Shown piece after piece: positions 30,172-51,800 of a stretch of DNA of 64,000 nucleotides. The stretch's first letter is position 1. Each line of letters begins with the position of its first letter. Under the pieces are notes generated by a model, which made no database searches, was not told the origin of the DNA, and was given only the letters and a program-made list of their open reading frames with translations. Made by a program: the position numbers and the translations under genes. Source of the DNA: Candidatus Aenigmatarchaeota archaeon (GTDB lineage: Archaea > Aenigmatarchaeota > Aenigmatarchaeia > CG10238-14 > WAMV01); assembly GCA_015522145.1 (NCBI GenBank), contig WAMV01000007.1, forward strand, positions 15,470 through 79,469. Reading direction: 5' to 3'.

Positions 30172-30753
30172 GTGGAATTATATTTAATGGAAAAAATAAC
30201 CTGCAGCTATTGTGGCAGAAAGTTTGATAATGAAAATTCTTTAAAACAACATAAACAAGCCAAACACCCCAGCGAGTTCCAAAAAGAAATAGAAAACAAA
30301 ATTAAAGAGCATACACAAAGAAGGCAATTAATCAGCATAGCTAAGTATTCTGTAGCTCTTTTAATTCTAGCTATAGCAGCTTTTTACTTACCAACACTTA
30401 TCCAAATTAAGTATTACCCACCAACAACTATTGAGGGACATGTGGAAGCTTATCCTCCAGCTAGAGTTGTAAAAGAACCTATACCAGAACCTATACAAAA
30501 ACATATTCTGGAGCATGTACCGACTAGCTTTGGAAACAGACCTGGCGTTCTAATACAATATAATTGTGAAAAGTTTGATTGTGCTCCTGATTTAATTGTT
30601 AAACTGGAAAACTTGACAAGATTTTATGAGTATTTGTACGTTGCTCCCAATCCTAAGATAGATGCTAAAATTGCTCTAACAAAATTTGGACAGATATTAA
30701 TTTTGGATGATTATGACGAACAAAGAATAAGGGAATTTATAGAAAGTTTTTAA
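30172..30753 (+). CDS. Membrane-anchored protein with N-terminal cytoplasmic C2H2 zinc finger and His-rich extracytoplasmic domain
   Basis: CSYCGRKFDNENSLKQHKQAKH C2H2 finger, one TM, then EGHVEAY...QKHILEHV. 24 nt upstream of copB. Confidence 0.4.
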   Translation: MELYLMEKITCSYCGRKFDNENSLKQHKQAKHPSEFQKEIENKIKEHTQRRQLISIAKYSVALLILAIAAFYLPTLIQIKYYPPTTIEGHVEAYPPARVVKEPIPEPIQKHILEHVPTSFGNRPGVLIQYNCEKFDCAPDLIVKLENLTRFYEYLYVAPNPKIDAKIALTKFGQILILDDYDEQRIREFIESF

Positions 30754-30777
30754 GCAAATAAACTAAACTAATTTTAC

Positions 30778-32922
30778 ATGGAACATTCCCATCATGACCA
30801 TGCTCATCATATGGAAGAATTTAAGAAAAAATTCATTATAGCAACTATACTAACGATACCAGTTCTTTTACTTTCAGAAACTATACAGCTTTGGCTGGGC
30901 TTTAGCTTTCAAATTCCTTATCAAAAATATGTTGTTCTTGCTTTAAGCTCTATTATTTATTTCTACGCAGGAATGCCTTTCTTGAAAGGTAGTTATAATG
31001 AATTGAAGGCAAGACAGCCAGGCATGATGACACTTGTTGCAAGCGCTATAAGCGTAGCTTATTTTTACTCTGTTTTTGTTGTGTTTACTGGTAGAGGTAG
31101 GGAATTTTTCTGGGAGCTAGCAACGCTTATAGATGTGATGCTTCTAGGTCATTGGATTGAGGCTAAAAGTGTTTTAGGAGCAAGTAAAGCTTTAGAAGAA
31201 TTAGCAAAGTTGATGCCAACCTACGCTCATCTAATCAAAAATGGCGAAGTTGTGGATGTAAGTGTAGAAGAGTTAAAGGTTGGTGATATAGTTTTGGTTA
31301 AGCCTGGGGAAAAAATACCTAGCGATGGTGTTATCATAGAAGGTTCTTCTTTTGTAAATGAAGCTTTACTAACTGGCGAGTCCAAACCTGTTAGCAAAAA
31401 GGAAGGTGATAAAGTTATAGCTGGTTCTATTAATGGTGAAGGAAGTTTAAAAGTTAAGGTAGAAAAAACTGGAAAGGATATTTACCTTGCCCAAGTAATG
31501 GAACTTGTTAAGCAAGCTCAGCAAAGCAAAAGCAGAACGCAAGATTTAGCTAATAAAGCAGCTTCCCTGTTGTTTTATGTTGCATTAATTTCTGGTATTA
31601 TTACTTATTCTGTTTGGAGTTTCTACGGCATGCCAGATGCAGCATTGGAAAGGACAGTAACAGTTTTAGTAATTGCATGCCCTCATGCTCTTGGCCTGGC
31701 TATTCCTCTTGTCGTTGCAATTTCTACAGCTATAACAGCTAAGCAAGGAATACTAATAAGGAATAGAAAAGCATTTGAGGAAGTTAAGGATGTTGATGTT
31801 GTTGTTTTTGATAAAACTGGTACGCTAACTCTTGGAGAGCTAGAAGTTAGCGATGTCTGGAGTAAGATTGATGAGAAAGAATTGCTTAGCTATGCTGCAA
31901 GCCTAGAAGTTCATTCTGAGCATATTATCGGAAGGGCAATAGTTGATTATGCTAAGAAAAAAGGCATAGAAATTAAACAAGTTAATGAATTTAAAGCCAT
32001 TCCTGGAAAGGGAGTCTTTGGCATCATAGATGGTAAAGAGATTTATGTGGGAAGTGAGGAATTGTTAAAAGACCTGGAGCTCCAAGAAACAAACGAAAAA
32101 ATAAAAGAATGGCAGAGCAAAGGAAAATCTATAATTTTTGTTGTTGTTAATAAAGAAGTAGTTGGGGCATTTGCTTTGGAAGACAAAATAAGAGAAGAGT
32201 CTTTGCAAGCAGTTGAAAAACTTAAGGAAATAGGAATAAAAGTTTACATGATAACAGGAGATGCTGAGGAAGTTGCTAAAGATGTGGCTACAAGGCTAGG
32301 AATAGACAATTTCTTCGCTAGAGTATTACCAGATCAAAAAGCAAACAAAATAAAAGAACTTCAAGAAAAAGGCTATAAAGTTGCCATGGTTGGTGATGGT
32401 ATAAATGATGCTCCAGCCTTAATGCAGGCTGATGTTGGTATAGCTATTGGCGCTGGCACAGATGTGGCTATAGAAAGTGCCGACATAATATTAGTAAGAA
32501 ATAATCCTCTGGATGTTGTTAAAATAATTAAAATAGCTAGAAGTGTTTACTCTAAGATGGTTCAGAATTTATGGTGGGCAGCAGGCTATAACATTATTGC
32601 AATACCTTTAGCTGCAGGAATACTAGCTAATTATGGAATAATAATTTCTCCAGCCATAGGAGCTATTTTAATGTCTCTAAGCACCATAATAGTTGCAATA
32701 AATGCGCAAACATTAAGAAAATTGGAGCCAAAAACTGAGGTAAAGGAAGTGGTTTATAGGGATGTTGTGTGTGGTATGAATGCAGAAAACTCTGACATTA
32801 AGTTTGAGTATGAAAACATAGTTTACCACTTCTGTTCTGAAAACTGCTTAAAAGAATTTAAGAAAAATCCTAAAAAATACTTAAAGGGTGGTTCTGAGCA
32901 TATGCACGCCCATCATCATTGA
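30778..32922 (+). CDS. copB: Copper-exporting P1B-type ATPase (CopB-like) with N-terminal His-rich stretch and C-terminal YHS/TRASH domain
   Basis: MEHSHHDHAHHM, CPH transmembrane motif, DKTGTLT, GDGINDAPAL. C-terminal CGM...HFCSENC TRASH/YHS. Confidence 0.85.
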   Translation: MEHSHHDHAHHMEEFKKKFIIATILTIPVLLLSETIQLWLGFSFQIPYQKYVVLALSSIIYFYAGMPFLKGSYNELKARQPGMMTLVASAISVAYFYSVFVVFTGRGREFFWELATLIDVMLLGHWIEAKSVLGASKALEELAKLMPTYAHLIKNGEVVDVSVEELKVGDIVLVKPGEKIPSDGVIIEGSSFVNEALLTGESKPVSKKEGDKVIAGSINGEGSLKVKVEKTGKDIYLAQVMELVKQAQQSKSRTQDLANKAASLLFYVALISGIITYSVWSFYGMPDAALERTVTVLVIACPHALGLAIPLVVAISTAITAKQGILIRNRKAFEEVKDVDVVVFDKTGTLTLGELEVSDVWSKIDEKELLSYAASLEVHSEHIIGRAIVDYAKKKGIEIKQVNEFKAIPGKGVFGIIDGKEIYVGSEELLKDLELQETNEKIKEWQSKGKSIIFVVVNKEVVGAFALEDKIREESLQAVEKLKEIGIKVYMITGDAEEVAKDVATRLGIDNFFARVLPDQKANKIKELQEKGYKVAMVGDGINDAPALMQADVGIAIGAGTDVAIESADIILVRNNPLDVVKIIKIARSVYSKMVQNLWWAAGYNIIAIPLAAGILANYGIIISPAIGAILMSLSTIIVAINAQTLRKLEPKTEVKEVVYRDVVCGMNAENSDIKFEYENIVYHFCSENCLKEFKKNPKKYLKGGSEHMHAHHH

Positions 32923-33605
32923 AGGAACTGATTAATTACAGTCTCAAACGTTTGGTAAGGTTGAGCTCCAACTATTTTTACACCATTTATGAAGAATGTT
33001 GGTGTTCCTTGGACACCGTAGCTTACACCATCTTGATAATCTTTTTGTACTTCTTGAGCATATTTGCCAGAATCTAAGCAGGAGCTAAATTGCTCCAAAT
33101 CCAAACCAAGTTCTGCAGCGTAGTCTTTGAATTTTTGAACTCCCTGAGTTGACCATTCAGATTGTCTTTCAAACAATATGTCGTGGTATTCCCAATACTT
33201 ACCCTGCTCTCCAGCACACTCTGCTGCCTCAGCAGCTTTTTGAGCATATTGGTGGAAGTTTAAAGGAAAGTCTCTATAAACAAGTTTGACCTTGCCTGTA
33301 TCTATGAAATTTTGTTTGATTAAAGGCAATGTTTGTTGCCAGAATCTCCTACAGAATGGGCATTGGTAATCGCTAAACTCTATGATGGTTACAGGAGCGT
33401 TTGGATCGCCTAGCACAGGATCGTCATCAGCACTAACTTGAACTCGAGTAGGCTGTTGTTTAGGCACTTCTTTAGGAATCGCTTGATCTGCTGTGTCTGT
33501 GGGTGTTTCTGTGGGTGTTAATTGAGAGTATATACTAAAAGTCGCAACTAGATTAATAGCCACTAATATTGTTAAGACTATTAACAAAGTTTCATAGCGT
33601 CTCAT
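32916..33605 (-). CDS. DsbA-like thioredoxin-fold thiol:disulfide oxidoreductase (membrane-anchored)
   Basis: CPFC active site, N-terminal TM anchor. Confidence 0.7.
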   Translation of the reverse strand: MRRYETLLIVLTILVAINLVATFSIYSQLTPTETPTDTADQAIPKEVPKQQPTRVQVSADDDPVLGDPNAPVTIIEFSDYQCPFCRRFWQQTLPLIKQNFIDTGKVKLVYRDFPLNFHQYAQKAAEAAECAGEQGKYWEYHDILFERQSEWSTQGVQKFKDYAAELGLDLEQFSSCLDSGKYAQEVQKDYQDGVSYGVQGTPTFFINGVKIVGAQPYQTFETVINQFLQ

Positions 33606-33642
33606 AAATTAAATATGGGGAAGGATTTATAATTGTTATTTA

Positions 33643-34332
33643 ATGTTCAACAAACACAACTTGTTAAAAATATTATTTGTAACCATATTACTAATGGTTT
33701 TTCCTTTGTACGTCCAGAATGCTATATGGTTATGGCAAAACACAGATTTGCTGATAGTGAATAACTGGCTTCTTGTTGTTTTTTACGTTTTTCTATTTTT
33801 GTTAATATTGATGTTTTTAAGACCGGATAAAAATAAGGGCATGTGGAAAAAGGTCAAGGGAGTTTATGTTGCCTACATAGTTGCTTTGTTTACAGAAATG
33901 TTTGGAATACCTCTAACTTTATACTTCTTTTCTTTTTCTTTCGCGAATTTTGAGCCTGTTGAAACTCTGTTTGCGTTAGAGTTTGAATTTATGGGTAGTA
34001 AGATGAGATTATTAGCAACCAGTGCCATAGCTGGTGTAATTAGCTTGCTATCTGCTATAATCATAGCTATTGCATGGAAGCAAATTTATAACGCTAAAGG
34101 AAAGTTAGTTACTGATGGTATTTACCGATTTTCCAGACATCCTCAATACTTCGCTCTTATTCTAATCATTGCCTTCTGGACAATGGCATGGCCGACTGTT
34201 TTAACTATAACCTTGGGTACGATTTTGATTGTAAGCTATGTATGGTTAGCAAAGCAAGAAGAAAAGGAGCTTGAAAAGATTTTTGGTAAGAAATATTTAA
34301 GGTATAAAAAAACTGTTCCAATGTTTATTTAA
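33643..34332 (+). CDS. Isoprenylcysteine carboxyl methyltransferase (ICMT/PEMT) family membrane methyltransferase
   Basis: LVTDGIYRFSRHPQYFA and EEKELEKIFGKKYLRYKKTVPMFI motifs. Confidence 0.6.
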   Translation: MFNKHNLLKILFVTILLMVFPLYVQNAIWLWQNTDLLIVNNWLLVVFYVFLFLLILMFLRPDKNKGMWKKVKGVYVAYIVALFTEMFGIPLTLYFFSFSFANFEPVETLFALEFEFMGSKMRLLATSAIAGVISLLSAIIIAIAWKQIYNAKGKLVTDGIYRFSRHPQYFALILIIAFWTMAWPTVLTITLGTILIVSYVWLAKQEEKELEKIFGKKYLRYKKTVPMFI

Positions 34333-34452
34333 TGGCATGCTTTATTATCTCTAAATTGCAGGAATTGTGTTCTCTACACCATTCTTCACATTTCTGAGCT
34401 AACTCAAAAGATTTATATTTATTAGAACATTCTTCACAAACAAATATGCCAT

Positions 34453-34962
34453 TTATCTCCTTGACCGTTTTATCCTCCTCTTTCTCCTAACCACCTTAGT
34501 TGTTCTAGCAGGCTTGGAACTGCTCATTGCAACAATTAGTATGAGGAGTAATAAAAATAAGAAGAAAAACATTCCAAAATACCAGAATCCCATACCCCAG
34601 CCCCAATATGGATACATCATCATACCACCCATCATGCCATAAGTTCCATAGTTGTTTACTCCTTCAAAAGTATATTGATTTTCCCCACAATATATTCTCC
34701 TAGCCATCAGTATATGCATTTGTCTTAAGCTTTCAGAGCCTTCGCCTCCCATCATCTGATCCATTATTTCATGAGCTTGGCCGGGATGCATTAATTCCAT
34801 GTAATAATCGCCTATAGCCTCAAGCTGCTCATCTGTAAGCTGAGAGCAGGGTACTTGCTGATTTATTATTTGTTCTATCTCAGTTACGTTCGCATCCGTA
34901 TGAGCAAAAACACTAGGTAGAATAGTTAAAAGTACCACCAATGTTATTGCGATTCTTTTCAT
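34453..34962 (-). CDS. Secreted Met/His-rich protein with C-terminal TM anchor, putative metal (Cu) binding
   Basis: Signal peptide, then HPGQAHEIMDQMMGG and MMGGMMMY Met clusters. C-terminal TM plus basic tail. Confidence 0.4.
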   Translation of the reverse strand: MKRIAITLVVLLTILPSVFAHTDANVTEIEQIINQQVPCSQLTDEQLEAIGDYYMELMHPGQAHEIMDQMMGGEGSESLRQMHILMARRIYCGENQYTFEGVNNYGTYGMMGGMMMYPYWGWGMGFWYFGMFFFLFLLLLILIVAMSSSKPARTTKVVRRKRRIKRSRR

Positions 34963-34994
34963 TTTAACATCACCTTGATGCTTAATACTTTATT

Positions 34995-35459
34995 TTAGGC
35001 CCTTATAAAGGTAAATATGTTGCTGCCATCATAAGCATATATGGTAAACAAAGAGGTTTTAATTCCGGACATTCCTGGTGAGCCAGGAGGCATTCCAGGC
35101 AATGCTATTCCTTTTATGTTTGGTTTTTCCTCAAGTAATTTATTTATGGCTTCTATAGGCACATGACCCTCAACAAAATAATTGCCTATTTTAACAGTGT
35201 GACATGACCAAAGATTTTGGGGAATTCCTAGTTCTGTTTTTATTTGGACTAGTTGTGCTTCATTAACCTCTACAGAGTTTACTTGCAATCCAAAACCTCT
35301 TAAATAATTTTCATAAAGCTTGCAACATCCACATGTTGGCGAATAATATATCGTAATCGTATCAGAATAATTTGCTACAGGTCTAAAGAATTGAAATGAA
35401 AACATTACAGCCAAAAATATCAAGATTCCTAATGCTGCATATAGGGTTTTGTCTTTCAT
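34995..35459 (-). CDS. CopG/DUF411-like periplasmic metal-binding protein
   Basis: YYSPTCGCC motif matching the CxCC signature I recall for CopG/DUF411. Signal anchor. Confidence 0.5.
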   Translation of the reverse strand: MKDKTLYAALGILIFLAVMFSFQFFRPVANYSDTITIYYSPTCGCCKLYENYLRGFGLQVNSVEVNEAQLVQIKTELGIPQNLWSCHTVKIGNYFVEGHVPIEAINKLLEEKPNIKGIALPGMPPGSPGMSGIKTSLFTIYAYDGSNIFTFIRA

Positions 35460-35932
35460 TCTTTACAGCACTCCAGCATCTTTTTCAGTATTTTTACAAA
35501 ATTTCTGTTTGAAAATCCTATTTTTTCTGATTTAAATTTCTTCAGGTTTAACTGCCAAAACAATGAATAAAGGTAAAATGCGTCCTCAAAAGCCTCTTTG
35601 GCCATTTTCTCATTTCCTTTGGAAAGGTACTTGTTACCTGTTTCTATTAGACGCATAGATGCTGCTAAAAGATGTTTAGAAATACACCAAACCTCGCCTT
35701 CTGGATCTTTTACTATTTCTTTCATAAACTTCTTTCTTATCTTTCTAACATTTTCTATAAGGTCTAAGTAAATTTTCTTATTTGTTTTTATGGCGGTAAA
35801 GAAAAGATGTTCCTCTATAGATATCAAATTCATTAACCCAATGCTTAAGTCTTCTTCTAGCGATAGGTCTTTCATCTCTTTCATTTTGTTAACTTTTTCA
35901 AGCAATTCCTTAGCGTTTTTAGCTCTTTTCAT
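35456..35932 (-). CDS. Hypothetical cytoplasmic protein
   Basis: 158 aa, no family recognised. Confidence 0.35.
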   Translation of the reverse strand: MKRAKNAKELLEKVNKMKEMKDLSLEEDLSIGLMNLISIEEHLFFTAIKTNKKIYLDLIENVRKIRKKFMKEIVKDPEGEVWCISKHLLAASMRLIETGNKYLSKGNEKMAKEAFEDAFYLYSLFWQLNLKKFKSEKIGFSNRNFVKILKKMLECCKE

Positions 35933-35935
35933 TTT

Positions 35936-36406
35936 TCACCACCAAAACAAAAACAATATGCTAACCAAGGTTAGTGTTAAAAGTGTTATAACAATAGATT
36001 GGTAGCCTATTTTTTTGGGAAGTGATTTTGCAACATTAAGCACTAATAAAGTTAGAATAGCACCTATCAGGATGGATAAAGTAAGCCTGTCTATCCCAAA
36101 AATCATATGATAAGAAACTATACCCGCATAATAGAATGGAATTATTGTCAAGCCCAAAGCTAGGAAAACTAATAAAACTGTTAATCCTGGATTTTCGTTT
36201 TTGTTTATTACTCTGTCCATCCATAATGCCGTTGAAATTATAAAAGCTCCTAACCACAAACCAACTATAGAATCATTAACACCATAAAATCTTGCAACCA
36301 TTACAGCTGTGCCAGTAGCAGCTGTGCACAATGGACAGTGAGCTAAGCTTGGTTGAGCTAAAAGCGTGCTCATCATTATTGCAAAAACAATTAAAGCAAT
36401 TTTCAT
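35936..36406 (-). CDS. Membrane protein with signal peptide and N-terminal HCPLC motif
   Basis: Likely start at the internal ATG at 36406 (MKIALIVF...LAQPSLA|HCPLC). Three to four TM segments. Confidence 0.4.
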   Translation of the reverse strand: MKIALIVFAIMMSTLLAQPSLAHCPLCTAATGTAVMVARFYGVNDSIVGLWLGAFIISTALWMDRVINKNENPGLTVLLVFLALGLTIIPFYYAGIVSYHMIFGIDRLTLSILIGAILTLLVLNVAKSLPKKIGYQSIVITLLTLTLVSILFLFWW

Positions 36407-36456
36407 GATAAAAAAGTGGTGTGAAACAACTTTTAAGGGTTGGTGTGAAACTAGTT

Positions 36457-36912
36457 TCACTTGGCTATTATTAGATTTGTCATACCTCTCCTTTTTCTTT
36501 CTATGAGGCCTTTTGCTTCCAAGCTGTCAAGGATTCTGGTAACTTTAGATTTGGAAAACCCTGTTTCTTTTATAATTTCGGATTGAAAAATTGCATTGCC
36601 AGACTTTTTTATTAGCCCAAAAACCTTTTTCTCATCTGGATTGAGCTTTGCTAGCTGCTTCTTCAGCTTTAAGGAAGGTGAGGTAAGAAGCAAATAAAAG
36701 CCTAAAGCTCCCAAAAGTGTGGAGATTGTTATACCTAAGTAAGTTTGTGGTGGAATGTAATCTTCATGAGGACAAGCACTTGCATTTGCATTGCAAACAT
36801 CTTCACAAATTTGAGAGGAGTAATAAACAATGCTACTGGTTGTAACATAAGTAAAGTAAAGAGTTATTAGGGCCATTACCATTAAAGTGTAGCCCAAAAT
36901 TGTGTTTTTCAT
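36457..36912 (-). CDS. Membrane-tethered winged-helix transcriptional regulator with Cys-rich extracytoplasmic loop
   Basis: TM1, then CEDVCNANASACPHEDY, then TM2, then a wHTH (IFQSEIIKETGFSKSKVTRILDSLEAKGLIERKRRG). Confidence 0.5.
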   Translation of the reverse strand: MKNTILGYTLMVMALITLYFTYVTTSSIVYYSSQICEDVCNANASACPHEDYIPPQTYLGITISTLLGALGFYLLLTSPSLKLKKQLAKLNPDEKKVFGLIKKSGNAIFQSEIIKETGFSKSKVTRILDSLEAKGLIERKRRGMTNLIIAK

Positions 36913-45118: not shown

Positions 45119-47470
45119 TTTTACTATTTTTGTGGGTTCATCTACAGCCTTATTTCTGCTTAACAAATAAGCATGGCCTGTGATAGCGTCCTCCATTTTT
45201 TCATCATGAGTAATTATTAAAACTTGTTCCAAAAACTCTGATACTCTTTCTCTTAGAGCTCTTGCTAACTCCTCAACAGCCTTCTTGTCGAGGTTATGTG
45301 TTGGTTCATCTAAGACTAAAAGCTTTAGCTGTGGCGCCAAAACCAAAGCCAAAGCTATTCTTAATGCTAAAACCGCTAAGCTTCTTTCACCACCAGAAAC
45401 AAAACCATCAACACTTACCCACCTACCAGCTTTATCTTGTAGCTGCAAAACATAATCGCCCTCTTCAACATTCAGCCTTATAGCAACATAATCCCCATAT
45501 GGGTAAAGCGTTTCCCATACTCTATTCATTTCTAAATTTATAGAAGTCACGAATTCCTGTCTTAATTGAGTTTGTGTAAGCTTTAATGCTTTTTCCATTA
45601 TTTTTAGGTTGGAGTATATTTTATCTAACTTTTCAATTTCTTCTTTGAGTTTCTTGATGTTTTCTAGTTGAGAATTTAGTTTTTCTACGCTGACATTTTT
45701 CTCCCTTTTCTCTCTCTCCAAAGACTCTAGCTCTTTTTCTAAAGATGCCTTCTTAGCTATAATTTTCTGTATTGTTTTTTCTATCTGTGTTAGCTTAGCT
45801 TCGTCAACTTCTCGAGAAATTTCCTCATGCTGCCTTAACAGGCTTGCTAGCTTGGCTTTTATACCGTTTACTTCATCTTCTAATTTAACATACTCTTCTA
45901 TTTTTTCTATTAAAGAATCGTAAGCATCTATTTCCTTTTCTAATTCTCTTAGATGAACTTCTTTCTTTTCTATAAGAGCTTCTTTTTCTTGCAGAGCTTT
46001 GCTTAGAGAGTTTAGCATTGACTCTCTTTTTCTTAATTCAAAAGTTAGGGTATCTGACTTTTTCTTAAGTTCGTCTAAGTCTGAAATTTCCTGATTCAAC
46101 AATCTAATTTTCTCGTCTATTTTCTCTAATGTTTCTAACTCTTTCTTCTCTAACTCTAAGTTTCTGATGAGCGTTGCAAGTTCGCTCTCTGTTTCTTTCA
46201 ATTCTTTGTTTTTTTTCTGAGAAATTTCAAAAATGTGTTCTGGCGTCAATGGAGAATTGCAAATTGGGCACTTTTCTTTAGCTTCTCTTAACTTTTCTAG
46301 ACTTTCTTTTATTTCACTTGCCTTCATTTCCAAAAACTTTATCTTGGCTAATTTGCTCTCAACTTCTATTTTTTTATTTTTCAAAATTTCGTCAATGTTT
46401 GGATAGGTTTTGAGTAAACTATCTAATTGTTTTTTACTTTCTTCTTTTTCGGAAATTTTTAATTTTAAGTCAGCTATTTCGTTTTCTAGGGATTTTTTAG
46501 TGGATGTGTGGTGTATGATTTCCTCTCTTAACTTTGCTAACTCATTCTTTTCTTTTTCCAACTCGTTTTTTAAGGTTTCTAATTTCGTCAAGAGCTCTTG
46601 TTTTTTATTTTCAAGGATTTCTTTAGACCTTCCCTCAACTTCCATCTTTAGTTGGGAAAGTCTTTTTGTTTTCTCCTCAAGCAAAGCCCTAGTTTTTTCC
46701 AGCTCTATAACAATATCATCAAGCTCTTTTTTCCTATTTCTTAAATATTCATAGTTGCTAGAAATTTGGGTTAGTTCTGTCTCAAGCGCATTTAGTTGTT
46801 GGGTGATTTCATGTATGTGTTTATTAATTTCATCCAATCTACTTTCTAACTCAGAAATTTCTTTCTCTAACTCCTCTACATTGTAGGATTCATAAGCTTT
46901 TGCTATAGAATTTCTTTGATCTCTTATTCTGTTAGCCAAAGTAACGAGGTTTGATCTAATCTTTTCAAGTCTTTCAATCATTAACAACTCATCAACTTTC
47001 TTTATTCTCTGCCCTTTAGGCAATCTCAAAAAGTAGTCTAGGGAGTTTTGCTCTGAATAAATAACTTTGGAAAATAATTCATAGCTTGTTTTTAATATTT
47101 TCTCAATAAGTTCGCTAACCCTAGAGGGTTGAGCTTCTATTATTTTTCCGTTCTCAACAAGTTCTGCCTTTGTAGTACCTTTGCCCCTTTCTATTCTTCT
47201 ACGAACAATGTATTCATTGTTTCTAAAACTGAAATGAAGCTCGACTTCTGCGTAATCTTTTAGCATTGGTTTTCTCATTATTATATCCTCAAGCTTTATT
47301 TTCTTCGAGCTCAGCGCAGGAAAAGTACCGTACAAGGCAAAACAAATAGCATCTAGCACAGAGCTTTTACCACTACCTATTATGCCTATTAAGGCATTCG
47401 TGCCCAAACCAAACTCTAAGCTAGAGTTAAGATGGGATTTCCAGTTTTTGAGCACCACTTTTTTTATCAT
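45113..47470 (-). CDS. rad50: DNA double-strand break repair ATPase Rad50
   Basis: Walker A GIIGSGKSS, long coiled coils, zinc hook CPICNSPL, signature and D-loop motifs. Confidence 0.9.
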   Translation of the reverse strand: MIKKVVLKNWKSHLNSSLEFGLGTNALIGIIGSGKSSVLDAICFALYGTFPALSSKKIKLEDIIMRKPMLKDYAEVELHFSFRNNEYIVRRRIERGKGTTKAELVENGKIIEAQPSRVSELIEKILKTSYELFSKVIYSEQNSLDYFLRLPKGQRIKKVDELLMIERLEKIRSNLVTLANRIRDQRNSIAKAYESYNVEELEKEISELESRLDEINKHIHEITQQLNALETELTQISSNYEYLRNRKKELDDIVIELEKTRALLEEKTKRLSQLKMEVEGRSKEILENKKQELLTKLETLKNELEKEKNELAKLREEIIHHTSTKKSLENEIADLKLKISEKEESKKQLDSLLKTYPNIDEILKNKKIEVESKLAKIKFLEMKASEIKESLEKLREAKEKCPICNSPLTPEHIFEISQKKNKELKETESELATLIRNLELEKKELETLEKIDEKIRLLNQEISDLDELKKKSDTLTFELRKRESMLNSLSKALQEKEALIEKKEVHLRELEKEIDAYDSLIEKIEEYVKLEDEVNGIKAKLASLLRQHEEISREVDEAKLTQIEKTIQKIIAKKASLEKELESLEREKREKNVSVEKLNSQLENIKKLKEEIEKLDKIYSNLKIMEKALKLTQTQLRQEFVTSINLEMNRVWETLYPYGDYVAIRLNVEEGDYVLQLQDKAGRWVSVDGFVSGGERSLAVLALRIALALVLAPQLKLLVLDEPTHNLDKKAVEELARALRERVSEFLEQVLIITHDEKMEDAITGHAYLLSRNKAVDEPTKIVKL

Positions 47471-48702
47471 ACAAATCTACCAAGAGTTTTTTGTTTGTTG
47501 GTTAAAATGTTTAATGCTTTATCAACATCTTCTTCCAAAATCCTCATTATTTCTTCGTAGTCAATCAAATTAAAGTCAAACCCCATAGCTTCTAGATTCT
47601 TCCTTAGAATATTTGCGGAAATTTCCTCTATTGATAAAGATTTGTCCCTTATCTCCCTTAATAGCTCAATACTTTTCCTGTATTCCTCAGAAATTATTTC
47701 TTTAGAAATTTTGACTATGGCTTTTTCTTTGAATTGATTTTCTATCTTTTTTATATTAGCTTCCCATGTTTGGTTAGCTTTTGTAATTACTTTAACCTTT
47801 ATTATGGGTTTTTTAGAAAATTGCTGAGAAAGTGCTTTAGATATTTTCTCCTTTATATCATCTTCGCTTACAACATCCTTTCTAATCTCTAGATAAATGA
47901 ACTTTCTTTGATTTTTAAAGGGTATGAATTGAATATCAAAATTATTTTCGTTGATAGTTATTTTGTAGTACCCCTTTTCTTCCTCAGATTCGTTTTTTTC
48001 AAATTGAGTGACTATGGAGCTTCCTGTTATGAGTAGGGTTGTGTTCCCTATTTTATCAATAGCTTTTTTATGAACATGTCCATTTATAATCAAATCAAAA
48101 CCTTTTGGTAAATCCCCAATTCTAATGCTTGGTATGTCTAGGGGCGAATATACATAGGGGTGTACATTCTGATGAAGCATTAATATATTAAAAGCGTTCT
48201 CCAAAGGCTTTGGATTCCAATTTTGAAGCATTTGTAACGCATAAGCTTCTGGTACATTGCTCATACCAAATATAGCCACTTTCATGTCATCTTTCTCAAA
48301 AACCAATCTGTTTTGATGTAGATGGATTAAAAATCCTCCCCTCTCTAAAGCTTGAACGGGATTTATTTCACTTCTTGTTCTTCTTTCATGATTTCCATGC
48401 AAAGCAATAACAGGAATTGAGCTAAGAGTTTTTGATGAAGAATCGAGTAGCTCTTTATCTGCATCTATAAGCTTAATTTTGGATTTTCCTTTTAAAGGAA
48501 CTGAAAATACTTGCAAAGCTTTACCCCAAGTTGCTGTTCTTGGACTTCTGCTATCAAATATATCACCAGCTACCAGAATCAAATCACAATCCAGCATATT
48601 TTCAAAAGCTTCTCGAGCTAACTCAAAGCTATCGTTTTCATACTCTGTATTGTAACCAAAACCCAGGTGCAAATCTGAAATTACTCCAATCTTTATAGAC
48701 AT
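47467..48702 (-). CDS. mre11: DNA double-strand break repair nuclease Mre11
   Basis: ISDLHLG, GDIFDSR and HGNHE phosphoesterase motifs. Confidence 0.9.
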   Translation of the reverse strand: MSIKIGVISDLHLGFGYNTEYENDSFELAREAFENMLDCDLILVAGDIFDSRSPRTATWGKALQVFSVPLKGKSKIKLIDADKELLDSSSKTLSSIPVIALHGNHERRTRSEINPVQALERGGFLIHLHQNRLVFEKDDMKVAIFGMSNVPEAYALQMLQNWNPKPLENAFNILMLHQNVHPYVYSPLDIPSIRIGDLPKGFDLIINGHVHKKAIDKIGNTTLLITGSSIVTQFEKNESEEEKGYYKITINENNFDIQFIPFKNQRKFIYLEIRKDVVSEDDIKEKISKALSQQFSKKPIIKVKVITKANQTWEANIKKIENQFKEKAIVKISKEIISEEYRKSIELLREIRDKSLSIEEISANILRKNLEAMGFDFNLIDYEEIMRILEEDVDKALNILTNKQKTLGRFV

Positions 48703-48740: not shown

Positions 48741-50132
48741 ATGCGCAGCCTCAGTTTATCTAATATCTTGTTTTACGGTAGCGCTCTAACAATTTCCTTT
48801 CTGATATTGACTTTCATTTCACCCTTTAATCTAACTCTATTTGTCCAATATTATTTATCAAGTAGACCTGACATAGTCCTCATGGGATTAATTGTAATAG
48901 TGGCATTTTCTTACTCCTTATCGTATTTCATGGAATATTTAGCAAAGAGATTTGAATTCTTGTTAAAACCTTATAAAAATTTGTTTGTTGTCAGCTCTGT
49001 TGTGTTTTACATAATTTCATTTGTTTTAATGTTAGGCAACACATCTTACAACATTTTTTCTTATGTTGAGATGAACAACTTCATTTATACACTTCTCAAC
49101 TTTATTCTTTTAGCTCCTATTATAGCATATACATCCCTCTTTCTAGTCAACATTTTTGCATCAATAAAAGACAATACCATCAGGACATTTGGATCAGGCG
49201 GTCTACTAGCAGGCTTATTTTCAATGGGTTGTCCTACATGTGGTGCATTACTCTACTCACTAATAGGATTGAGTGCGGGCTTAACCTTATTTCCATTAAA
49301 CGGGCTAGAGATAAGGCTTGTCTCTCTTGGTCTCTTAGTTTATGCTTCCACAAAAATAACTCCTAAATTGTGTAAAGAATGTTTAGCTCCTAGAAGAAAA
49401 AACCAATTTGAAATAGTCGGCACAAGACCTTTGTTTGATAGTATAACAGACAAAATAATTCTAATTTCCTTTGTTGCCATGATTGGTTTAATAGGTTTTA
49501 ACCAACTACAAATACAAATGATAAACTCTTCTATTACATCACTTTCTTTAGCAGCTTTCGGAAGAGTTTCGGGAGCAAATTTAGATAATGTTGATGTTTA
49601 TAAAGTAAGTTCAACGGCTATGGCTATAGCTACGGTATTTCCAGAAATAAAGTCTGTATCTAGTATAGATGAAATAGCAAGTATTTTAATTCCAACCGGG
49701 ACCCCAGAATATAGTGAAGCTTTAGGAGGCATCACTTTTGATGATATTCCAAATTCATTAACATATTTATCCCGATGGTATTTCCAATTGAAAGATGAAG
49801 TAAAGAATAACGATCCCGAAACATGGCAGAGATACTTGAAGTTGGCAGCAGCTCCAAGAGGCATTAGCTGTGAGTTTTGTTGTGGTGTAGGACCTCAAGG
49901 TATAACTAGTGATGGAAACTTGAGATGTGGATGCTCGCATAATATTGCGTTACAAGCTTTAACATTAGGATTAATGAAGTACACGGATTATAGTGATGCT
50001 GAAATATTAAGAGAAGTGTTAAGATGGAAGGCGGCTTTCTTCCCAAGAGGAATGGTTAATCTAGCTGCCCAGACAATAGGCCAAGATCCCTCCCAGTTGG
50101 GTTCTCTTCCTGGAATGGTTGGTGGTTGCTAA
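48741..50132 (+). CDS. Polytopic membrane protein with intramembrane GCPTCG motif, Cys-rich C-terminal domain and ...LPGMVGGC* terminus
   Basis: About 8 TM. CPTC sits in a TM segment. CEFCCGVGP and CGCSHN clusters. The terminal motif is shared with the next ORF. Confidence 0.45.
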   Translation: MRSLSLSNILFYGSALTISFLILTFISPFNLTLFVQYYLSSRPDIVLMGLIVIVAFSYSLSYFMEYLAKRFEFLLKPYKNLFVVSSVVFYIISFVLMLGNTSYNIFSYVEMNNFIYTLLNFILLAPIIAYTSLFLVNIFASIKDNTIRTFGSGGLLAGLFSMGCPTCGALLYSLIGLSAGLTLFPLNGLEIRLVSLGLLVYASTKITPKLCKECLAPRRKNQFEIVGTRPLFDSITDKIILISFVAMIGLIGFNQLQIQMINSSITSLSLAAFGRVSGANLDNVDVYKVSSTAMAIATVFPEIKSVSSIDEIASILIPTGTPEYSEALGGITFDDIPNSLTYLSRWYFQLKDEVKNNDPETWQRYLKLAAAPRGISCEFCCGVGPQGITSDGNLRCGCSHNIALQALTLGLMKYTDYSDAEILREVLRWKAAFFPRGMVNLAAQTIGQDPSQLGSLPGMVGGC

Positions 50133-50166
50133 AAATTTAAAAGGTATATAAACCATTTATATTGTT

Positions 50167-50406
50167 ATGAAAAGCAGGCAGAAGTTTGTTAGTGGCTGGG
50201 TTTTAATTCTAATTACATTAGTAATGATAACAATAACAGCTGTACAAGCTTATCAGTTAATGAACCTTCAGTCTCAAATTTTAACACTGTCCGAATCTTT
50301 AAAAGAATATAAGCCAGTCACGTCAACTTTATCTTCACCAGGTTCAAGCACTTCTCTCCTTCAGCAAAATTTACAAAATTTACCATCTATGGTAGGCGGT
50401 TGTTAG
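50167..50406 (+). CDS. Small single-pass membrane protein ending ...LPSMVGGC*
   Basis: 79 aa with N-terminal TM. The last 12 residues align with the C-terminus of the upstream protein. Confidence 0.4.
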   Translation: MKSRQKFVSGWVLILITLVMITITAVQAYQLMNLQSQILTLSESLKEYKPVTSTLSSPGSSTSLLQQNLQNLPSMVGGC

Positions 50407-50420
50407 AGAGGTGAATTAAG

Positions 50421-51800
50421 TTGAAAATGAAAAAACAAAAACTCTACTTTATATTTTTCGTTTCTATTCTTTTTGTTTTAGTCGTTTATAATTATTATTT
50501 GGCTCAACACACACAAACTCTAATTAATTTGGTTAATAGCCAAATCGAGGAGTTAAAAAAGCCCGTTAACTTAAAAATGATTATAATAGATGCCAATTGT
50601 GATGTTTGTTTCGATATAAAAGAGGTTGTAGATAACATTAGAAGTAATGAAAGAATAAACGTAACAGAAGTCGAAGTTTATTCTTTAACTGACAGTGATG
50701 TTAGAGCTCTAGTTTTATCATATTCCATAGATAGGCTTCCAACCGTGATACTAGAGGGTGAAATAGATAAAGTTCAGCTAGCAGGTTTTGAGAATAAAGG
50801 AAGCGCTTTAGTATTTACTGCTATAAACCCTCCCTACTACGATACTAAAAGTAAGAAAGTAGTTGGTTTAGTTAAAGCCATATACATAAATGCCAGTTAC
50901 TGTGATTTGTGTCGAGAAAATTATCAGACCATAGAATTTCTAGAGCAAAATGGTGTTGTTTTTGAATCTAAGCTTTTCTTAGATATAAACTCTTCACAGG
51001 CCCAACAAATAATAAACACATATAATTTAAAGAGTATTCCGGTGTTATTGTTATCTCAAGACATAGAAGCTTATAACATACAATTATCTGACTTAGGCCT
51101 AAATAAAGTGAATGATTTCTATATTGTCTATTCAGCACCACCTTATGTAGATTCTGAAAGTGGTGAGATTAGAGGCTTAGCTGAGCTTATTCTTTTGAGA
51201 AACAGTTCTTGCGACCAATGTTATGATGTTTCAATACATTCGGAGATTTTAAGAAATAGGTTTGGTGTAGCTATTATTAACGAAACTTATGTTGAAGTAG
51301 ATTCGGAATTTGGTCAACAACTCATTTCTAAGTATAATATAACAAAGATTCCAACGATCATAATTTTGGGTGATTTAGAACCATACACAGCTCTTAATAA
51401 TATATGGCCTAATGTGGGAAGCATTGAAAATGATGGAGCTTATGTTTTTAGAAATATGGATGCTTTGGGTAATGCTGTTTATATAGATCTAACGTTAAAC
51501 AAAATTGTTGGAGCTGAAGAAGTTAGAGAAATAGTAATAGCAGGTTCCGACTTCAACTTTACTCCCAACGAGATTAGAGTAAAAGTAGGTGAAAAGGTTA
51601 GAATAGTGTTTAGAAATGAAGGTGAAGTTGGACATAATTTGGTCATAGAAGGTTATAATATAGGAACTAATGTCATTCCGTCTGGGGCGACACAACCAAT
51701 AGAGTTTGTAGCAGACCAAGTAGGAGAGTTTGCATTCTACTGTAGTGTACCGGGTCACAGAGATTTAGGGATGGAAGGTTTGCTAATAGTTGAAGAGTAA
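50421..51800 (+). CDS. Secreted multidomain redox protein: three thioredoxin-like domains (CDVC, CDLC, CDQC) plus a C-terminal type-1 copper cupredoxin domain
   Basis: Each repeat has CDxC followed by a cis-Pro loop (RLPTVIL, SIPVLLL, KIPTIIIL). The C-terminal HNLVIE...FYCSVPGHRDLGM matches plastocyanin/azurin ligands. Confidence 0.6.
   Translation: MKMKKQKLYFIFFVSILFVLVVYNYYLAQHTQTLINLVNSQIEELKKPVNLKMIIIDANCDVCFDIKEVVDNIRSNERINVTEVEVYSLTDSDVRALVLSYSIDRLPTVILEGEIDKVQLAGFENKGSALVFTAINPPYYDTKSKKVVGLVKAIYINASYCDLCRENYQTIEFLEQNGVVFESKLFLDINSSQAQQIINTYNLKSIPVLLLSQDIEAYNIQLSDLGLNKVNDFYIVYSAPPYVDSESGEIRGLAELILLRNSSCDQCYDVSIHSEILRNRFGVAIINETYVEVDSEFGQQLISKYNITKIPTIIILGDLEPYTALNNIWPNVGSIENDGAYVFRNMDALGNAVYIDLTLNKIVGAEEVREIVIAGSDFNFTPNEIRVKVGEKVRIVFRNEGEVGHNLVIEGYNIGTNVIPSGATQPIEFVADQVGEFAFYCSVPGHRDLGMEGLLIVEE

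What the first reader, a model, noticed from the sequence alone, without database searches (positions are those of the whole stretch)
50106..50406. Two adjacent membrane proteins share a strictly conserved C-terminal tail ...Q.L..LPxMVGGC*, under apparent purifying selection
The 463-aa polytopic protein ends QDPSQLGSLPGMVGGC*. The next ORF is a 79-aa single-pass protein ending LLQQNLQNLPSMVGGC*.

At the DNA level the shared codons differ almost only at synonymous third positions: ctt/tta, cct/cca, gtt/gta, ggt/ggc, tgc/tgt. That argues for functional constraint on the peptide rather than a recent duplication. I know of no C-terminal sorting or processing signal that ends in a free Cys with no downstream TM. 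It differs from PGF-CTERM, PEP-CTERM, LPXTG and MYXO-CTERM, which are tripartite.

Possible roles include a recognition tag for a protease or transpeptidase, a lipidation or methylation site, or a thiol used in metal or redox chemistry. An ICMT-family isoprenylcysteine carboxyl methyltransferase homologue lies 15 kb upstream at 33643-34332.
Basis: seen in the sequence. Interest (0 to 1): 0.62.

Follow-up and report, generated by a model that had tools for sequence, protein, structure and literature searches.

The report
Paired cysteine-ended tails in DPANN archaea
Two neighbouring membrane proteins of a tiny (DPANN) archaeon end in the same ...LPxMVGGC tail; this gene pair is conserved and its tails co-evolve across well over a hundred related genomes, in copper-handling and thiol-redox gene clusters, so the tail is probably an undescribed flexible arm carrying a reactive cysteine.

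Summary
ORF A (48741-50132, 463 aa) and ORF B (50167-50406, 79 aa) both end in LPxMVGGC-COOH.

Conservation:
- ORF A's family has 298 representatives at 50% identity, essentially all from DPANN archaea, with no Pfam or NCBIfam model and no Foldseek match in the PDB.
- In 134 of 139 informative loci the ORF A-type gene has a small single-pass partner with the same tail. It lies downstream in 131 of 134, with a median gap of 27 nt.
- Tail variants (M/Q at -5, LP present or absent, GSC) match within a locus, while most shared residues use different codons.
- The small protein is the large one minus its globular domain.

Inference: both tails lie outside the cell. The terminal Cys is the only outside Cys in 140 of 145 small proteins.

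Context is copper plus thiol redox: a triple-thioredoxin protein (fused to a cupredoxin here), CcdA, CopG/DUF411 (sometimes between the two genes), P1B ATPases and BlaI/CopY-type repressors.

Best reading (about 0.45): tethered Cys-terminated arms that dock on the large protein's Cys5-His domain and relay Cu(I), kept reduced by the thioredoxin pathway. The ICMT idea is not supported.

The parts
48741..50132 (+). ORF A, the 'large tail protein' (463 aa, long form). By my reading of hydropathy and charge it has 7 TM helices, N-terminus inside and C-domain outside.
   Evidence: It has 108 word-indexed homologues and 298 HMM representatives. There is no Pfam or NCBIfam hit.
49227..49244 (+). GCPTCG motif (aa 163-168) inside a TM helix of the N-terminal polytopic domain. 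It is invariant (GCPxCG) in all 11 long-form proteins aligned.
   Evidence: Long-form loci rarely have a CcdA gene nearby (1 of 8, against 53 of 73 short-form loci).
49371..49382 (+). CKEC (aa 211-214) in the positively charged, presumably cytoplasmic, loop before the last TM helix. It is only partly conserved among long forms.
49578..50075 (+). Extracytoplasmic, mostly helical globular domain (about aa 280-445) with invariant G320, P322, Y324, R364, W429, K430, P435 and M438.
   Evidence: AF2 gives pLDDT 90.7 and pTM 0.87 for the domain alone. Foldseek against the PDB finds nothing (best E = 3, TM below 0.2). Alignments A1-A3.
49869..49940 (+). Cys/His-rich loop C377-E-F-C380-C381-G ... C396-G-C398-S-H400. 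All five Cys and the His are invariant.
   Evidence: The loop has no regular secondary structure but is confidently modelled.
50106..50129 (+). Tail of ORF A, LPGMVGGC (aa 456-463), with the stop codon at 50130-50132.
   Evidence: pLDDT is about 85 in the domain-only model and below 50 in the full-length model.
50167..50406 (+). ORF B, the 'small tail protein' (79 aa). It consists of a short basic N-terminus, a TM helix (aa 11-26), QAYQL (aa 27-31), a short helix, a Ser/Thr-rich linker and the tail LPSMVGGC (50380-50403). Its only Cys is the last residue.
   Evidence: hhalign shows it equals the large protein's anchor plus tail.
50427..51800 (+). ORF C. It has an N-terminal TM helix, three thioredoxin-like modules (CDVC 50598-50609, CDLC 50901-50912, CDQC 51210-51221) and a C-terminal cupredoxin domain. 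The ORF listing starts it at the TTG at 50421; gene callers use the ATG at 50427.
   Evidence: The homologous 'Trx3' gene follows the small gene in 68 of 80 loci.
34995..35459 (-). DUF411/CopG-like protein (CGCC motif), part of a second, functionally linked island.
   Evidence: Pfam DUF411, E = 4e-25. Homologues lie within the tail-gene cluster in 20 of 80 loci, and directly between the large and small genes in 7.
30778..32922 (+). P1B-type ATPase with a His-rich N-terminus, a CPH motif and a C-terminal YHS domain.
   Evidence: Pfam E1-E2_ATPase, Hydrolase and YHS. Homologous ATPases lie next to the tail pair in many loci.
35456..36912 (-). Three genes whose homologues (clusters c18, c16, c6) usually sit just upstream of the large tail gene in other genomes. 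They are a helical protein ending ...ECCKE (35456-35932), a TM protein with an AHCPLC motif (35936-36460) and a membrane-anchored MarR-like regulator (36457-36912).
32916..34962 (.). Further island genes: a DsbA-like thioredoxin (32916-33605, -), a PEMT/ICMT-like protein (33643-34332, +; not a conserved partner) and a Met-rich membrane protein (34453-34962, -; cluster c20).

Best explanation
The tail [LI]-P-x-[MQ]-[VI]-G-[GSDE]-C-COOH is a flexible extracytoplasmic arm whose working part is the terminal cysteine thiol.

Anatomy. The large protein carries the arm behind a novel helical domain that holds an invariant Cys5-His centre (CxxCC...CxCxH). The small protein is the same membrane anchor and the same arm with the domain left out.

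Proposed mechanism. Both arms dock at one site, most likely the Cys/His centre of the large protein's domain. There the terminal thiolate, possibly helped by the Met or Gln at -5, binds a thiophilic metal, most likely Cu(I), and passes it on. The small protein would act as a membrane-tethered fishing line that delivers or removes the metal in trans. The co-encoded triple-thioredoxin protein keeps these exposed thiols reduced. It would be fed by CcdA, or in long forms such as this window by the fused GCPxCG membrane domain. The module works with CopG, cupredoxins and P1B ATPases in copper homeostasis.

Shown here:
- conservation, pairing and co-variation of the tails
- the anchor-plus-tail homology of the small protein
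- the gene context

Inferred, not shown:
- outside topology
- docking of the arm
- metal identity
- direction of transfer
- reduction by Trx3
For: Pairing and conservation:
- The pair is present in 134 of 139 informative loci. The small gene is downstream in 131 of 134, with a median gap of 27 nt.
- MVGGC is invariant in 157 proteins of the first locus set. The terminal Cys is the constant feature across the divergent variants found among 142 family representatives.

One common reader for both tails:
- Variants co-vary within loci. Q at -5 occurs in both or neither, 11 against 0 discordant. [LIVM]P is in both in 98 pairs, in neither in 38, and discordant in 3. GSC/GSC, AP/AP and VP/VP pairs also occur.
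- 57% of shared degenerate residues use different codons.

- Only the large and small genes are always together.
- AF2 places the tail with pLDDT about 85 on the isolated domain.
- The small protein aligns to the large one in two pieces: anchor (probability 91.7%) and tail (probability 95.9%).

Thiol function:
- The terminal Cys is the only Cys after the TM helix in 140 of 145 small proteins.
- All 10 Cys of ORF A sit in conserved or recognisable motifs.

Metal, probably copper:
- DUF411/CopG lies in 20 of 80 loci, and between the two genes in 7.
- Cupredoxin occurs in 19 loci and is fused to Trx3 in this window.
- P1B ATPases, YHS domains, BlaI/CopY-type repressors and Met-rich proteins recur.
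- In the more divergent locus set the copper genes persist (ATPase in 14, DUF411 in 13 of 43 loci of at least 6 kb), while CcdA drops to 4.
- Cytoplasmic N-termini are His-rich in 12 of 153 small and 21 of 144 short large proteins, and carry a CC motif in 12 of 153 small proteins.

Reducing pathway:
- Trx3 with three CxxC motifs is present in 68 of 80 loci, and CcdA (Pfam DsbD_TM) accounts for 62 genes.

Precedent for copper-linked DsbD/Trx systems and for CopG as a Cu-thiol protein: PMC10907172, PMC8900818, PMC8456105.
Against: - No metal binding was or could be tested.
- I had no model coordinates, so contact between C463 and the Cys/His centre is not shown.
- In the full-length AF2 model the last residues have pLDDT below 50, so the docking is model-dependent.
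- Six invariant outside cysteines is an even number and could simply form three disulfides.
- M/Q exchange at -5 argues against Met as an obligatory soft ligand.
- The co-variation counts are not corrected for phylogeny. Part of the codon-identity excess (0.43 against 0.33) may reflect occasional gene conversion or shared codon bias.
- Gene context supports copper but does not exclude Ag, Hg, Cd or Zn, or a purely redox role.
- No CcdA gene lies in this 64-kb window.
Confidence: 0.45

Rival explanations
1. Pure redox swinging arm. The terminal Cys shuttles reducing equivalents by mixed disulfides between the Trx3/CcdA pathway and a catalytic disulfide in the large protein's domain. From my own knowledge, comparable tails exist in ribonucleotide reductase R1, thioredoxin reductase and DsrC. 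The large protein would be an extracytoplasmic reductase or oxidase. The small protein would be a tethered shuttle or competitor, and copper would be only the stress that makes the system necessary.
For: - Trx3 and CcdA are the most constant neighbours in the window's own clade (68 of 80 loci for Trx3, 62 genes for CcdA).
- The GCPxCG membrane domain and CcdA are nearly mutually exclusive (1 of 8 against 53 of 73 loci). This is what one would expect if the N-domain is a transmembrane thiol conduit.
- A Gly-Gly-Cys end is sterically suited to enter a thioredoxin active site (inference).
- The Scs systems are a precedent for a Cu-induced redox system (PMC10907172).
Against: - In the divergent locus set CcdA (4 of 43) and Trx3 (12 of 43) are far less constant than the pair itself and than the copper genes.
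- His-rich and CC cytoplasmic N-termini, and CopG inserted between the two genes, point to metal handling.
- A CxxCC plus CxCxH arrangement is more typical of a metal site than of a catalytic disulfide (own knowledge).
Confidence: 0.25
2. Structural or covalent stapling. The terminal Cys forms a fixed disulfide with the odd cysteine of the domain (for example C381), pinning the tail. The small protein uses the same chemistry to become disulfide-linked to the large protein or to itself, giving a covalent membrane complex.
For: - The outside of the large protein has an even number (6) of invariant Cys.
- The small protein has exactly one outside Cys, as expected for an intermolecular disulfide.
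- Co-variation of the tails fits a shared docking groove.
- AF2 docks the tail in the domain-only model.
Against: - A reductive pathway (CcdA plus Trx3) is co-encoded. By my own knowledge it would undo such bonds rather than make them.
- Many source environments are anoxic groundwater and sediments (own knowledge).
- Adjacent Cys in CxxCC and CxC are poor candidates for three independent structural disulfides (own knowledge).
- The tail is not confidently placed in the full-length model.
Confidence: 0.12
3. A new C-terminal sorting, processing or lipidation tag. A separate enzyme recognises ...LPxMVGGC and cleaves it, or attaches the terminal Cys to a lipid, the S-layer or another molecule.
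For: - A strictly conserved C-terminal peptide is shared by proteins that otherwise differ.
- It begins with LPx, like the sortase motif (own knowledge).
- In 12 loci a third type of small ORF, with a lipobox and ending ...PSGPIGGGC(G), sits in the same position.
Against: - In about 1.5 Mb of related DNA the tail occurs only on the large family, its paralogues and the small family, so there is no varied cargo.
- No protease, transpeptidase or transferase is consistently co-encoded. BlaR1-like peptidases occur in only about 10 of 80 loci and the ICMT-like gene in 1 of 80.
- There is no TM helix or basic cluster after the motif, and no NCBIfam sorting-domain hit.
- Both proteins already have an N-terminal anchor.
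- The loci are centred on the module, so cargo elsewhere in the genomes was not surveyed.
Confidence: 0.08
4. Chance resemblance or recent local duplication or gene conversion with no function, with ORF B not being a real gene.
For: - Only two ORFs in this window carry the tail.
- ORF B is short and low in complexity, and had only 2 hits in a word-indexed search.
Against: - The pair is conserved across DPANN lineages in 134 loci.
- The small family has a conserved TM helix, a QAxQL motif and the tail.
- Most shared residues use different codons.
- ORF B is called as a gene on 7 contigs.
Confidence: 0.01

Closest known systems
Scs (ScsABCD) and TlpA-ScoI type systems: a DsbD/CcdA-fed periplasmic thioredoxin pathway coupled to copper handling
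   Same: A membrane electron conduit (CcdA/DsbD_TM) is combined with membrane-anchored thioredoxin-fold CxxC proteins encoded alongside copper genes. ScsC binds Cu(I) tightly and is reduced by ScsB (PMC10907172, PMC8900818, PMC5524982).
   Different: The two tail proteins have no counterpart in Scs or TlpA systems. Trx3 is a three-module protein, fused here to a cupredoxin. In the divergent branch the tail pair occurs without CcdA or Trx3 nearby. These systems resemble the context, not the finding itself.
[quoted passage not shown]
   Same: It is an extracytoplasmic Cys-cluster protein (CxCC) of copper-resistance loci (PMC8456105, citing Hausrath et al. 2020). A CopG homologue is a frequent member of this cluster and sometimes sits between the two tail genes. 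The large protein also has a CxxCC motif.
   Different: The large protein gives no Pfam DUF411 hit. It is mostly helical rather than thioredoxin-like. CopG has no conserved Cys-terminated tail and no tail-only partner.
Flexible C-terminal cysteine arms of known enzymes and transporters: the MerA C-terminal Cys pair fed by MerT/MerP, the C-terminal HCH of Ctr1, DsrC, the ribonucleotide reductase R1 tail and the GCUG end of thioredoxin reductase (own knowledge, not checked here)
   Same: In each, a disordered or mobile C-terminal peptide with a terminal or near-terminal Cys carries a thiophilic metal or reducing equivalents into or out of a buried site. The mer relay also uses Cys pairs inside a TM helix and in a cytoplasmic loop, as the GCPTCG and CKEC motifs of ORF A may.
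   Different: There is no sequence or fold relation. None of them has a separately encoded, membrane-tethered 'arm-only' paralogue whose tail co-evolves with that of the domain protein. Here the Cys is the very last residue, after an invariant V-G-G.
Tripartite C-terminal sorting signals (PGF-CTERM, PEP-CTERM, LPXTG, GlyGly-CTERM) and CaaX prenylation with ICMT
   Same: A short conserved C-terminal motif is shared by different proteins. The motif starts with LPx, as in LPXTG.
   Different: There is no TM helix or basic tail after the motif. No sortase, archaeosortase or rhombosortase partner was found. The Cys is the last residue, not at -4. The tail is predicted to face outside. The ICMT-like gene is not conserved with the pair.

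Membership tests
Tripartite C-terminal sorting domains (PGF-CTERM / PEP-CTERM / LPXTG / GlyGly-CTERM) | The signature motif is followed by a hydrophobic TM helix and a basic cluster at the C-terminus. | tested here: not met
   Both ORFs stop immediately after the Cys. No NCBIfam or Pfam sorting-domain model matches.
Tripartite C-terminal sorting domains (PGF-CTERM / PEP-CTERM / LPXTG / GlyGly-CTERM) | A dedicated sortase, archaeosortase, exosortase or rhombosortase, and many different cargo proteins per genome. | tested here: inconclusive
   In about 1.5 Mb of loci only the two families and their paralogues carry the tail, and I did not recognise such an enzyme among the recurrent neighbour clusters I looked at. 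Whole genomes could not be surveyed.
CaaX / Rab-type prenylation with ICMT methylation | Cys at -4 (CaaX), or a CC/CXC end, on a cytosolic protein. | tested here: not met
   The Cys is the last residue after V-G-G. Basic or His-rich N-termini before the single TM helix place the C-termini outside (positive-inside inference).
CaaX / Rab-type prenylation with ICMT methylation | A co-occurring ICMT-type methyltransferase. | tested here: not met
   The ORF at 33643-34332 matches PEMT (E = 1.4e-9) and ICMT (E = 1e-6). It has a homologue in only 1 of 80 related loci.
Ubiquitin-like / sulfur-carrier proteins with a Gly-Gly C-terminus (ThiS, MoaD, SAMP) | A beta-grasp fold ending in GG, cytosolic, with an E1-like partner. 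| tested here: not met
   The model of ORF A is almost entirely helical. ORF B is a TM helix plus a linker. I did not recognise an E1-like gene among the recurrent neighbours I examined.
HMA-type metallochaperones (CopZ / Atx1 / MerP) | A ferredoxin-like HMA domain with an MxCxxC loop (Pfam PF00403). | tested here: not met
   No Pfam hit at E up to 1 for ORF A, and only two sub-threshold chance matches (DUF267, MHC2-interact; E about 0.09) for ORF B.
CopG / DUF411 | The Pfam DUF411 domain on a thioredoxin-like fold with a CxCC motif. | tested here: not met
   ORF A gives no DUF411 hit. The genuine DUF411 gene of the window is at 34995-35459.
DsbD/CcdA transmembrane electron conduit (as a description of ORF A's N-domain) | The DsbD_TM fold with two TM-embedded Cys in separate helices (Pfam PF02683 / PF13386). 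| tested here: not met
   No Pfam hit. ORF A has a single GCPxCG motif in one helix. Only the complementary distribution with CcdA suggests an analogous role.
The family proposed here: DPANN 'MVGGC-tail' pair | A large protein with CxxCC...CxCxH and a terminal [MQ][VI]G[GSDE]C, an adjacent single-pass small protein with the same tail, and tails that match within a locus. | tested here: met
   The window pair has all these features. 134 other loci share them.

The most novel reading that the evidence does not exclude
The pair is a new kind of two-component device. A 'reader' domain with a Cys5-His centre works with interchangeable Cys-terminated peptide arms: its own, cis-encoded arm and one or two trans-encoded membrane-tethered ones. 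The arms might jointly build or gate a multinuclear copper-thiolate (or other metal-sulfur) centre at the cell surface, or pass metal through the membrane via GCPxCG, His-rich or CC anchors. On this reading it is a DPANN-specific metal-acquisition or detoxification machine, or a covalent attachment chemistry, with no described analogue, built on a fold absent from the PDB.
Probability: 0.3. Interest if true: 0.85.

Novelty: new variant of a known kind. Interest (0 to 1): 0.68.

Why it matters
DPANN archaea have very small genomes, and many of their conserved genes have no known function (own knowledge).

This module is one of those unknowns:
- It is widespread: relatives in 171 GTDB species genomes and at least 555 metagenome stretches.
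- It is absent from Pfam and NCBIfam.
- It has no structural match in the PDB.
- It has an unusually clean, testable feature: a free terminal cysteine on a flexible arm, present on both a domain protein and its domain-less partner.

If the copper-relay reading is right, it shows how cells without quinones or a periplasm handle a toxic, thiol-reactive metal at their surface. It would also add a new design, an 'arm-only' tethered chaperone, to metal trafficking. If it is a redox arm or a tag instead, it is still a new motif with a defined partner set. It also supplies sequence signatures for annotating hundreds of hypothetical proteins.

Tried and rejected
Searches that found nothing:
- Pfam and NCBIfam scans of ORF A and ORF B.
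- A PDB sequence-profile search, which returned only chance TM-helix matches.
- Foldseek against the PDB with the full-length and the domain-only models.
- A literature search for 'MVGGC', which returned only unrelated uses.
- A 'DPANN' plus 'cupredoxin' literature search, which listed 15 papers. Judging from titles and abstracts only, none concerns this module; I opened none of them.

Searches that could not be run or were uninformative:
- A word-indexed search with ORF B found only 2 close relatives. The small family had to be recovered from genomic context instead.
The 40-column version returned only short fragments of the same two families. So whether other cargo exists remains open.

Ideas tested and dropped:
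- Homology of ORF A's N-domain to the neighbouring TM proteins c7 and c16. hhalign gave only weak local similarity around the Cys motif (probability 19% and 3%).
- The ICMT link.
- Gene conversion as the cause of the shared tails. Codons mostly differ.

Not attempted:
- Locating C463 relative to the Cys/His centre. Model coordinates are not returned by the tools.
- A mutual-information analysis of the tail against the domain. The tail is nearly invariant and the linker varies in length.
Full report
1. WHAT IS IN THE WINDOW

The window is archaeal and AT-rich (34.6% GC). Near the finding it encodes Rad50/Mre11, a proteasome beta subunit and an aCPSF1-like nuclease.

ORF A (48741-50132, +, 463 aa) ends ...SLPGMVGGC. 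After 34 nt comes ORF B (50167-50406, +, 79 aa), which ends ...NLPSMVGGC. No other ORF in any frame of the window ends in VGGC.

ORF C follows directly (50427-51800). It is a membrane-anchored protein with three thioredoxin-like CxxC modules and a C-terminal cupredoxin domain.

ORF A and ORF B match nothing in Pfam or NCBIfam above noise.

2. THE TAIL IS A FAMILY TRAIT

A database search with ORF A found 108 homologues. They come in two architectures:
- about 460 aa, with a polytopic N-domain plus the C-domain;
- about 260 aa, with one TM helix plus the C-domain.

Practically all complete sequences end in LPGMVGGC.

Invariant positions in the C-domain are C377, C380 and C381 (CEFCCG); C396, C398 and H400 (CGCxH); G320, P322, Y324, R364, W429, K430, P435 and M438; and G461 and C463.

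An exhaustive HMM search found 298 representatives at 50% identity. In the more distant ones the tail drifts to LPxQVGGC, MVGSC, MVGDC, MRGGC, QVGSC or WVGEC. The terminal Cys stays.

The generalised tail is [LI]-P-x-[MQ]-[VI]-G-[GSDE]-C-COOH.

Where named, the hosts are DPANN lineages: Woese-, Pace-, Nano-, Micr-, Aenigm- and Iainarchaeota, Burarchaeum and Nanoanaerosalina. A few bins carry labels that I suspect are wrong, such as 'uncultured Methanosarcinales' or 'bacterium'.

3. THE PAIR IS CONSERVED AND ITS TAILS CO-EVOLVE

I fetched 80 loci from GTDB species genomes, out of 171 that encode a relative. I fetched 80 more from metagenomes with a divergent QVGGC-type query, out of at least 555 confirmed relatives.

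- Of 139 loci with a complete large gene and at least 1.5 kb of downstream sequence, 134 also encode a small single-pass protein with the same kind of tail.
- The small gene is downstream in 131 of 134. The median gap is 27 nt. Eleven loci have two small genes.

The small family has an optional His-rich or Cys-Cys N-terminus, a TM helix ending in V-Q-A-x-Q-L, a short helix, a Ser/Gly-rich linker and then LPxS[LI]xNLPxMVGGC.

Profile-profile comparison aligns the small family to the short-form large family in two separate pieces:
- the anchor (69 columns, probability 91.7%, E = 8e-7);
- the tail (22 columns, probability 95.9%, E = 5e-9).

So the small protein is the large one without its globular domain.

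Tail variants match within loci, across 139 non-redundant pairs:
- Q at -5 is in both partners in 11 pairs and discordant in none (Fisher p = 1.6e-16).
- [LIVM]P at -8/-7 is in both in 98 pairs, in neither in 38, and discordant in 3 (p = 5e-31).
- GSC/GSC, AP/AP and VP/VP pairs, and pairs that have both lost LP, also occur.

These counts are not corrected for phylogeny.

Recent gene conversion does not generally explain the match. 57% of shared degenerate residues in the last eight codons use different codons (identical fraction 0.43, against 0.33 for shuffled partners). The simplest reading is that one common partner reads both tails.

4. TOPOLOGY AND STRUCTURE

Basic, His-rich or CC-containing N-termini precede the single TM helix in both families. 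By the positive-inside rule the domains and tails therefore face outside. This is an inference.

My reading of ORF A's hydropathy and charge gives seven TM helices with the N-terminus inside. On that reading:
- GCPTCG (aa 163-168) lies within TM5;
- CKEC (aa 211-214) lies in a basic cytoplasmic loop;
- the C-domain lies outside.

ORF A has exactly ten cysteines, all in these motifs, the domain centre or the tail. The terminal Cys is the only Cys beyond the TM helix in 140 of 145 small proteins.

AF2 models the C-domain confidently: pLDDT 90.7 and pTM 0.87 for the domain alone, and pLDDT 85.3 for the full length. It is mostly helical. The Cys-rich stretch forms an ordered loop without regular secondary structure.

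The tail is placed with pLDDT about 85 in the domain-only model, but below 50 in the full-length model. It is therefore a mobile arm that may dock. I had no coordinates, so the docking site is not established.

Foldseek against the PDB finds nothing for either model. Other structure libraries were unavailable.

5. GENE CONTEXT

I clustered the ORFs of the first 80 loci. The usual order is large - small - Trx3 - CcdA.
- Trx3 occurs in 68 loci. It typically carries three CxxC motifs and six Cys in total.
- CcdA accounts for 62 genes and matches Pfam DsbD_TM.

Other recurrent neighbours:
- DUF411/CopG occurs in 20 loci. In seven it sits directly between the large and small genes, with overlapping or near-abutting ends.
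- Cupredoxins occur in 19 loci, either stand-alone or fused to Trx3 as in this window.
- P1B ATPases and ArsP_1 permeases occur, the latter with YHS-like N-termini.
- BlaI/CopY-type repressors occur together with BlaR1-like peptidases.
- A membrane MarR-like regulator, TM proteins with AHCPLC or SCHNLC motifs, a helical protein ending CCKE, Met-rich proteins, and DsbA- and DoxX-type proteins also recur.

In the window these partners form a second island at 30.1-36.9 kb:
- P1B ATPase with a His-rich N-terminus, a CPH motif and a YHS domain, 30778-32922;
- DsbA-like protein, 32916-33605;
- Met-rich protein, 34453-34962;
- DUF411, 34995-35459;
- homologues of clusters c18, c16 and c6, 35456-36912.

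In the divergent locus set the copper genes remain frequent (ATPase in 14, DUF411 in 13, c16 in 14 of 43 loci of at least 6 kb). Trx3 (12) and CcdA (4) are less constant. The invariant core is therefore the pair itself, and its most stable association is with copper genes.

Long-form loci, which have the GCPxCG N-domain, rarely have CcdA nearby: 1 of 8 against 53 of 73 short-form loci. This hints that the fused membrane domain substitutes for CcdA. The long forms may be a single clade, so this is only suggestive.

6. INTERPRETATION

Directly shown:
- a DPANN-wide operonic pair with a shared, co-varying, Cys-terminated tail;
- a tail-only paralogue;
- a novel Cys5-His domain;
- a copper and thiol-redox neighbourhood.

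Inferred:
- The tails are outside.
- They are read by the same site, most economically the large protein's own domain, since nothing else always co-occurs.
- The functional group is the terminal thiol.

My best mechanistic reading (about 0.45) is a tethered thiolate relay for Cu(I). The arms bind and hand over the metal at the Cys/His centre. Trx3, fed by CcdA or by the GCPxCG domain, keeps them reduced. This parallels the way Scs and TlpA-Sco systems couple DsbD-type reduction to copper handling (PMC10907172, PMC8900818), and it places the pair alongside CopG, a Cu-thiol cluster protein (PMC8456105).

Main rivals:
- a purely redox swinging arm (0.25);
- structural or intermolecular disulfide stapling (0.12);
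- a new processing or lipidation tag (0.08).

Chance or gene conversion is excluded.

7. COMPARISON AND NOVELTY

The tail fails the defining features of several known classes:
- tripartite sorting signals, because there is no TM helix or basic segment;
- CaaX/ICMT, because of the Cys position, the side of the membrane, and the ICMT-like gene being present in only 1 of 80 loci;
- Gly-Gly ubiquitin-like carriers, because of fold and location.

The proteins are not members of the HMA, DUF411 or DsbD families.

In function the tail resembles known C-terminal cysteine arms (MerA, Ctr1, DsrC, RNR, TrxR; from my own knowledge). A separately encoded arm-only partner with a co-evolving tail is not something I know to be described. 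I found no literature on it (in one search I judged the listed papers by title and abstract only).

I rate it a new variant of a known kind (surface copper or thiol handling). I give about 0.3 to the possibility that it is a categorically new device.

Interest is 0.68.

Noticed in passing
L021 6444-6590; L030 8936-9127; L033 8656-8829; L046 8722-8880; L049 4607-4753; L059 2309-2446; L063 781-948; L064 6686-6853; L067 1059-1181; L068 1-105; L080 8684-8881: A third kind of tiny ORF (34-65 aa) in the same clusters, often immediately after the large tail gene. It has a signal peptide with a lipobox-like ...[GA]C, a Pro-rich linker and an end ...PSGPIGGGC(G). This is another membrane-tethered peptide with a Gly-Gly-(Gly)-Cys end but a different motif. 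None is present in the window.
   Followed up: partly
window 30172-36912: A copper and thiol island: a DUF3105 protein with a C2H2 zinc finger, a P1B ATPase (His-rich N-terminus, CPH, YHS), a DsbA-like protein, a PEMT/ICMT-like protein, a Met-rich membrane protein, DUF411/CopG, a helical protein ending ...ECCKE, a TM protein with AHCPLC, and a membrane-anchored MarR-like regulator. Homologues of most of these flank the tail pair in other genomes, so the window's module is split into two islands about 12 kb apart.
   Followed up: yes
window 35456-35932 (-) and cluster c18 in L002-L004, L071 and others: A presumably cytoplasmic helical protein family with no Pfam match. It ends in a Cys-Cys motif (...ECCKE, ...DCCKEW). 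This is another protein of the cluster with cysteines at its C-terminal end.
   Followed up: no
small tail proteins in L099, L110, L125, L133/L134, L138, L143/L144, L150, L154 (and others): Some small tail proteins start with a cytoplasmic D-C-C or E-C-C motif (for example MEDCCKP..., MKEECCIS..., MHDCCKEKKHEK...). Others have long His-rich repeats (for example HEHKPHEHKPHEHK in L015). These look like metal-binding sequences at the opposite, inside end of a single-pass protein.
   Followed up: partly
L092, L114, L129, L133, L134, L136, L139, L141, L149, L164 (set 2) and L019, L080 (set 1): Some loci carry extra tail-bearing genes. Most have two small tail genes in tandem. L019 has a second small one on the other strand (1711-1971). 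L080 has a second large-family paralogue (11503-12459, 318 aa). The number of arms per system therefore varies.
   Followed up: partly
window 50427-51800; L005 9271-10632; L056 9065-10534: The triple-thioredoxin protein is fused to a cupredoxin domain in a minority of lineages. Elsewhere the cupredoxin is a separate membrane-anchored gene of about 140-170 aa in the same cluster. This domain fusion ties the thioredoxin protein to copper.
   Followed up: yes
window 42899-48702: A DNA double-strand-break repair cluster lies immediately upstream of ORF A on the opposite strand or nearby. It comprises a metallophosphoesterase, a HerA-like DUF87 ATPase (43688-45118), Rad50 (45113-47470) and Mre11 (47467-48702). 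It appears unrelated to the finding.
   Followed up: no
window 38814-40985: A 723-aa secreted protein, rich in Asn, Ser and Thr and repetitive, with a C-terminal TM anchor. It may be a surface or S-layer-like protein. It does not carry the tail.
   Followed up: no
P0116; L041: A few family members are labelled 'Patescibacteria group bacterium' or 'bacterium', and several as 'uncultured Methanosarcinales'. I did not check whether this reflects mis-binning or real occurrence outside DPANN.
   Followed up: no
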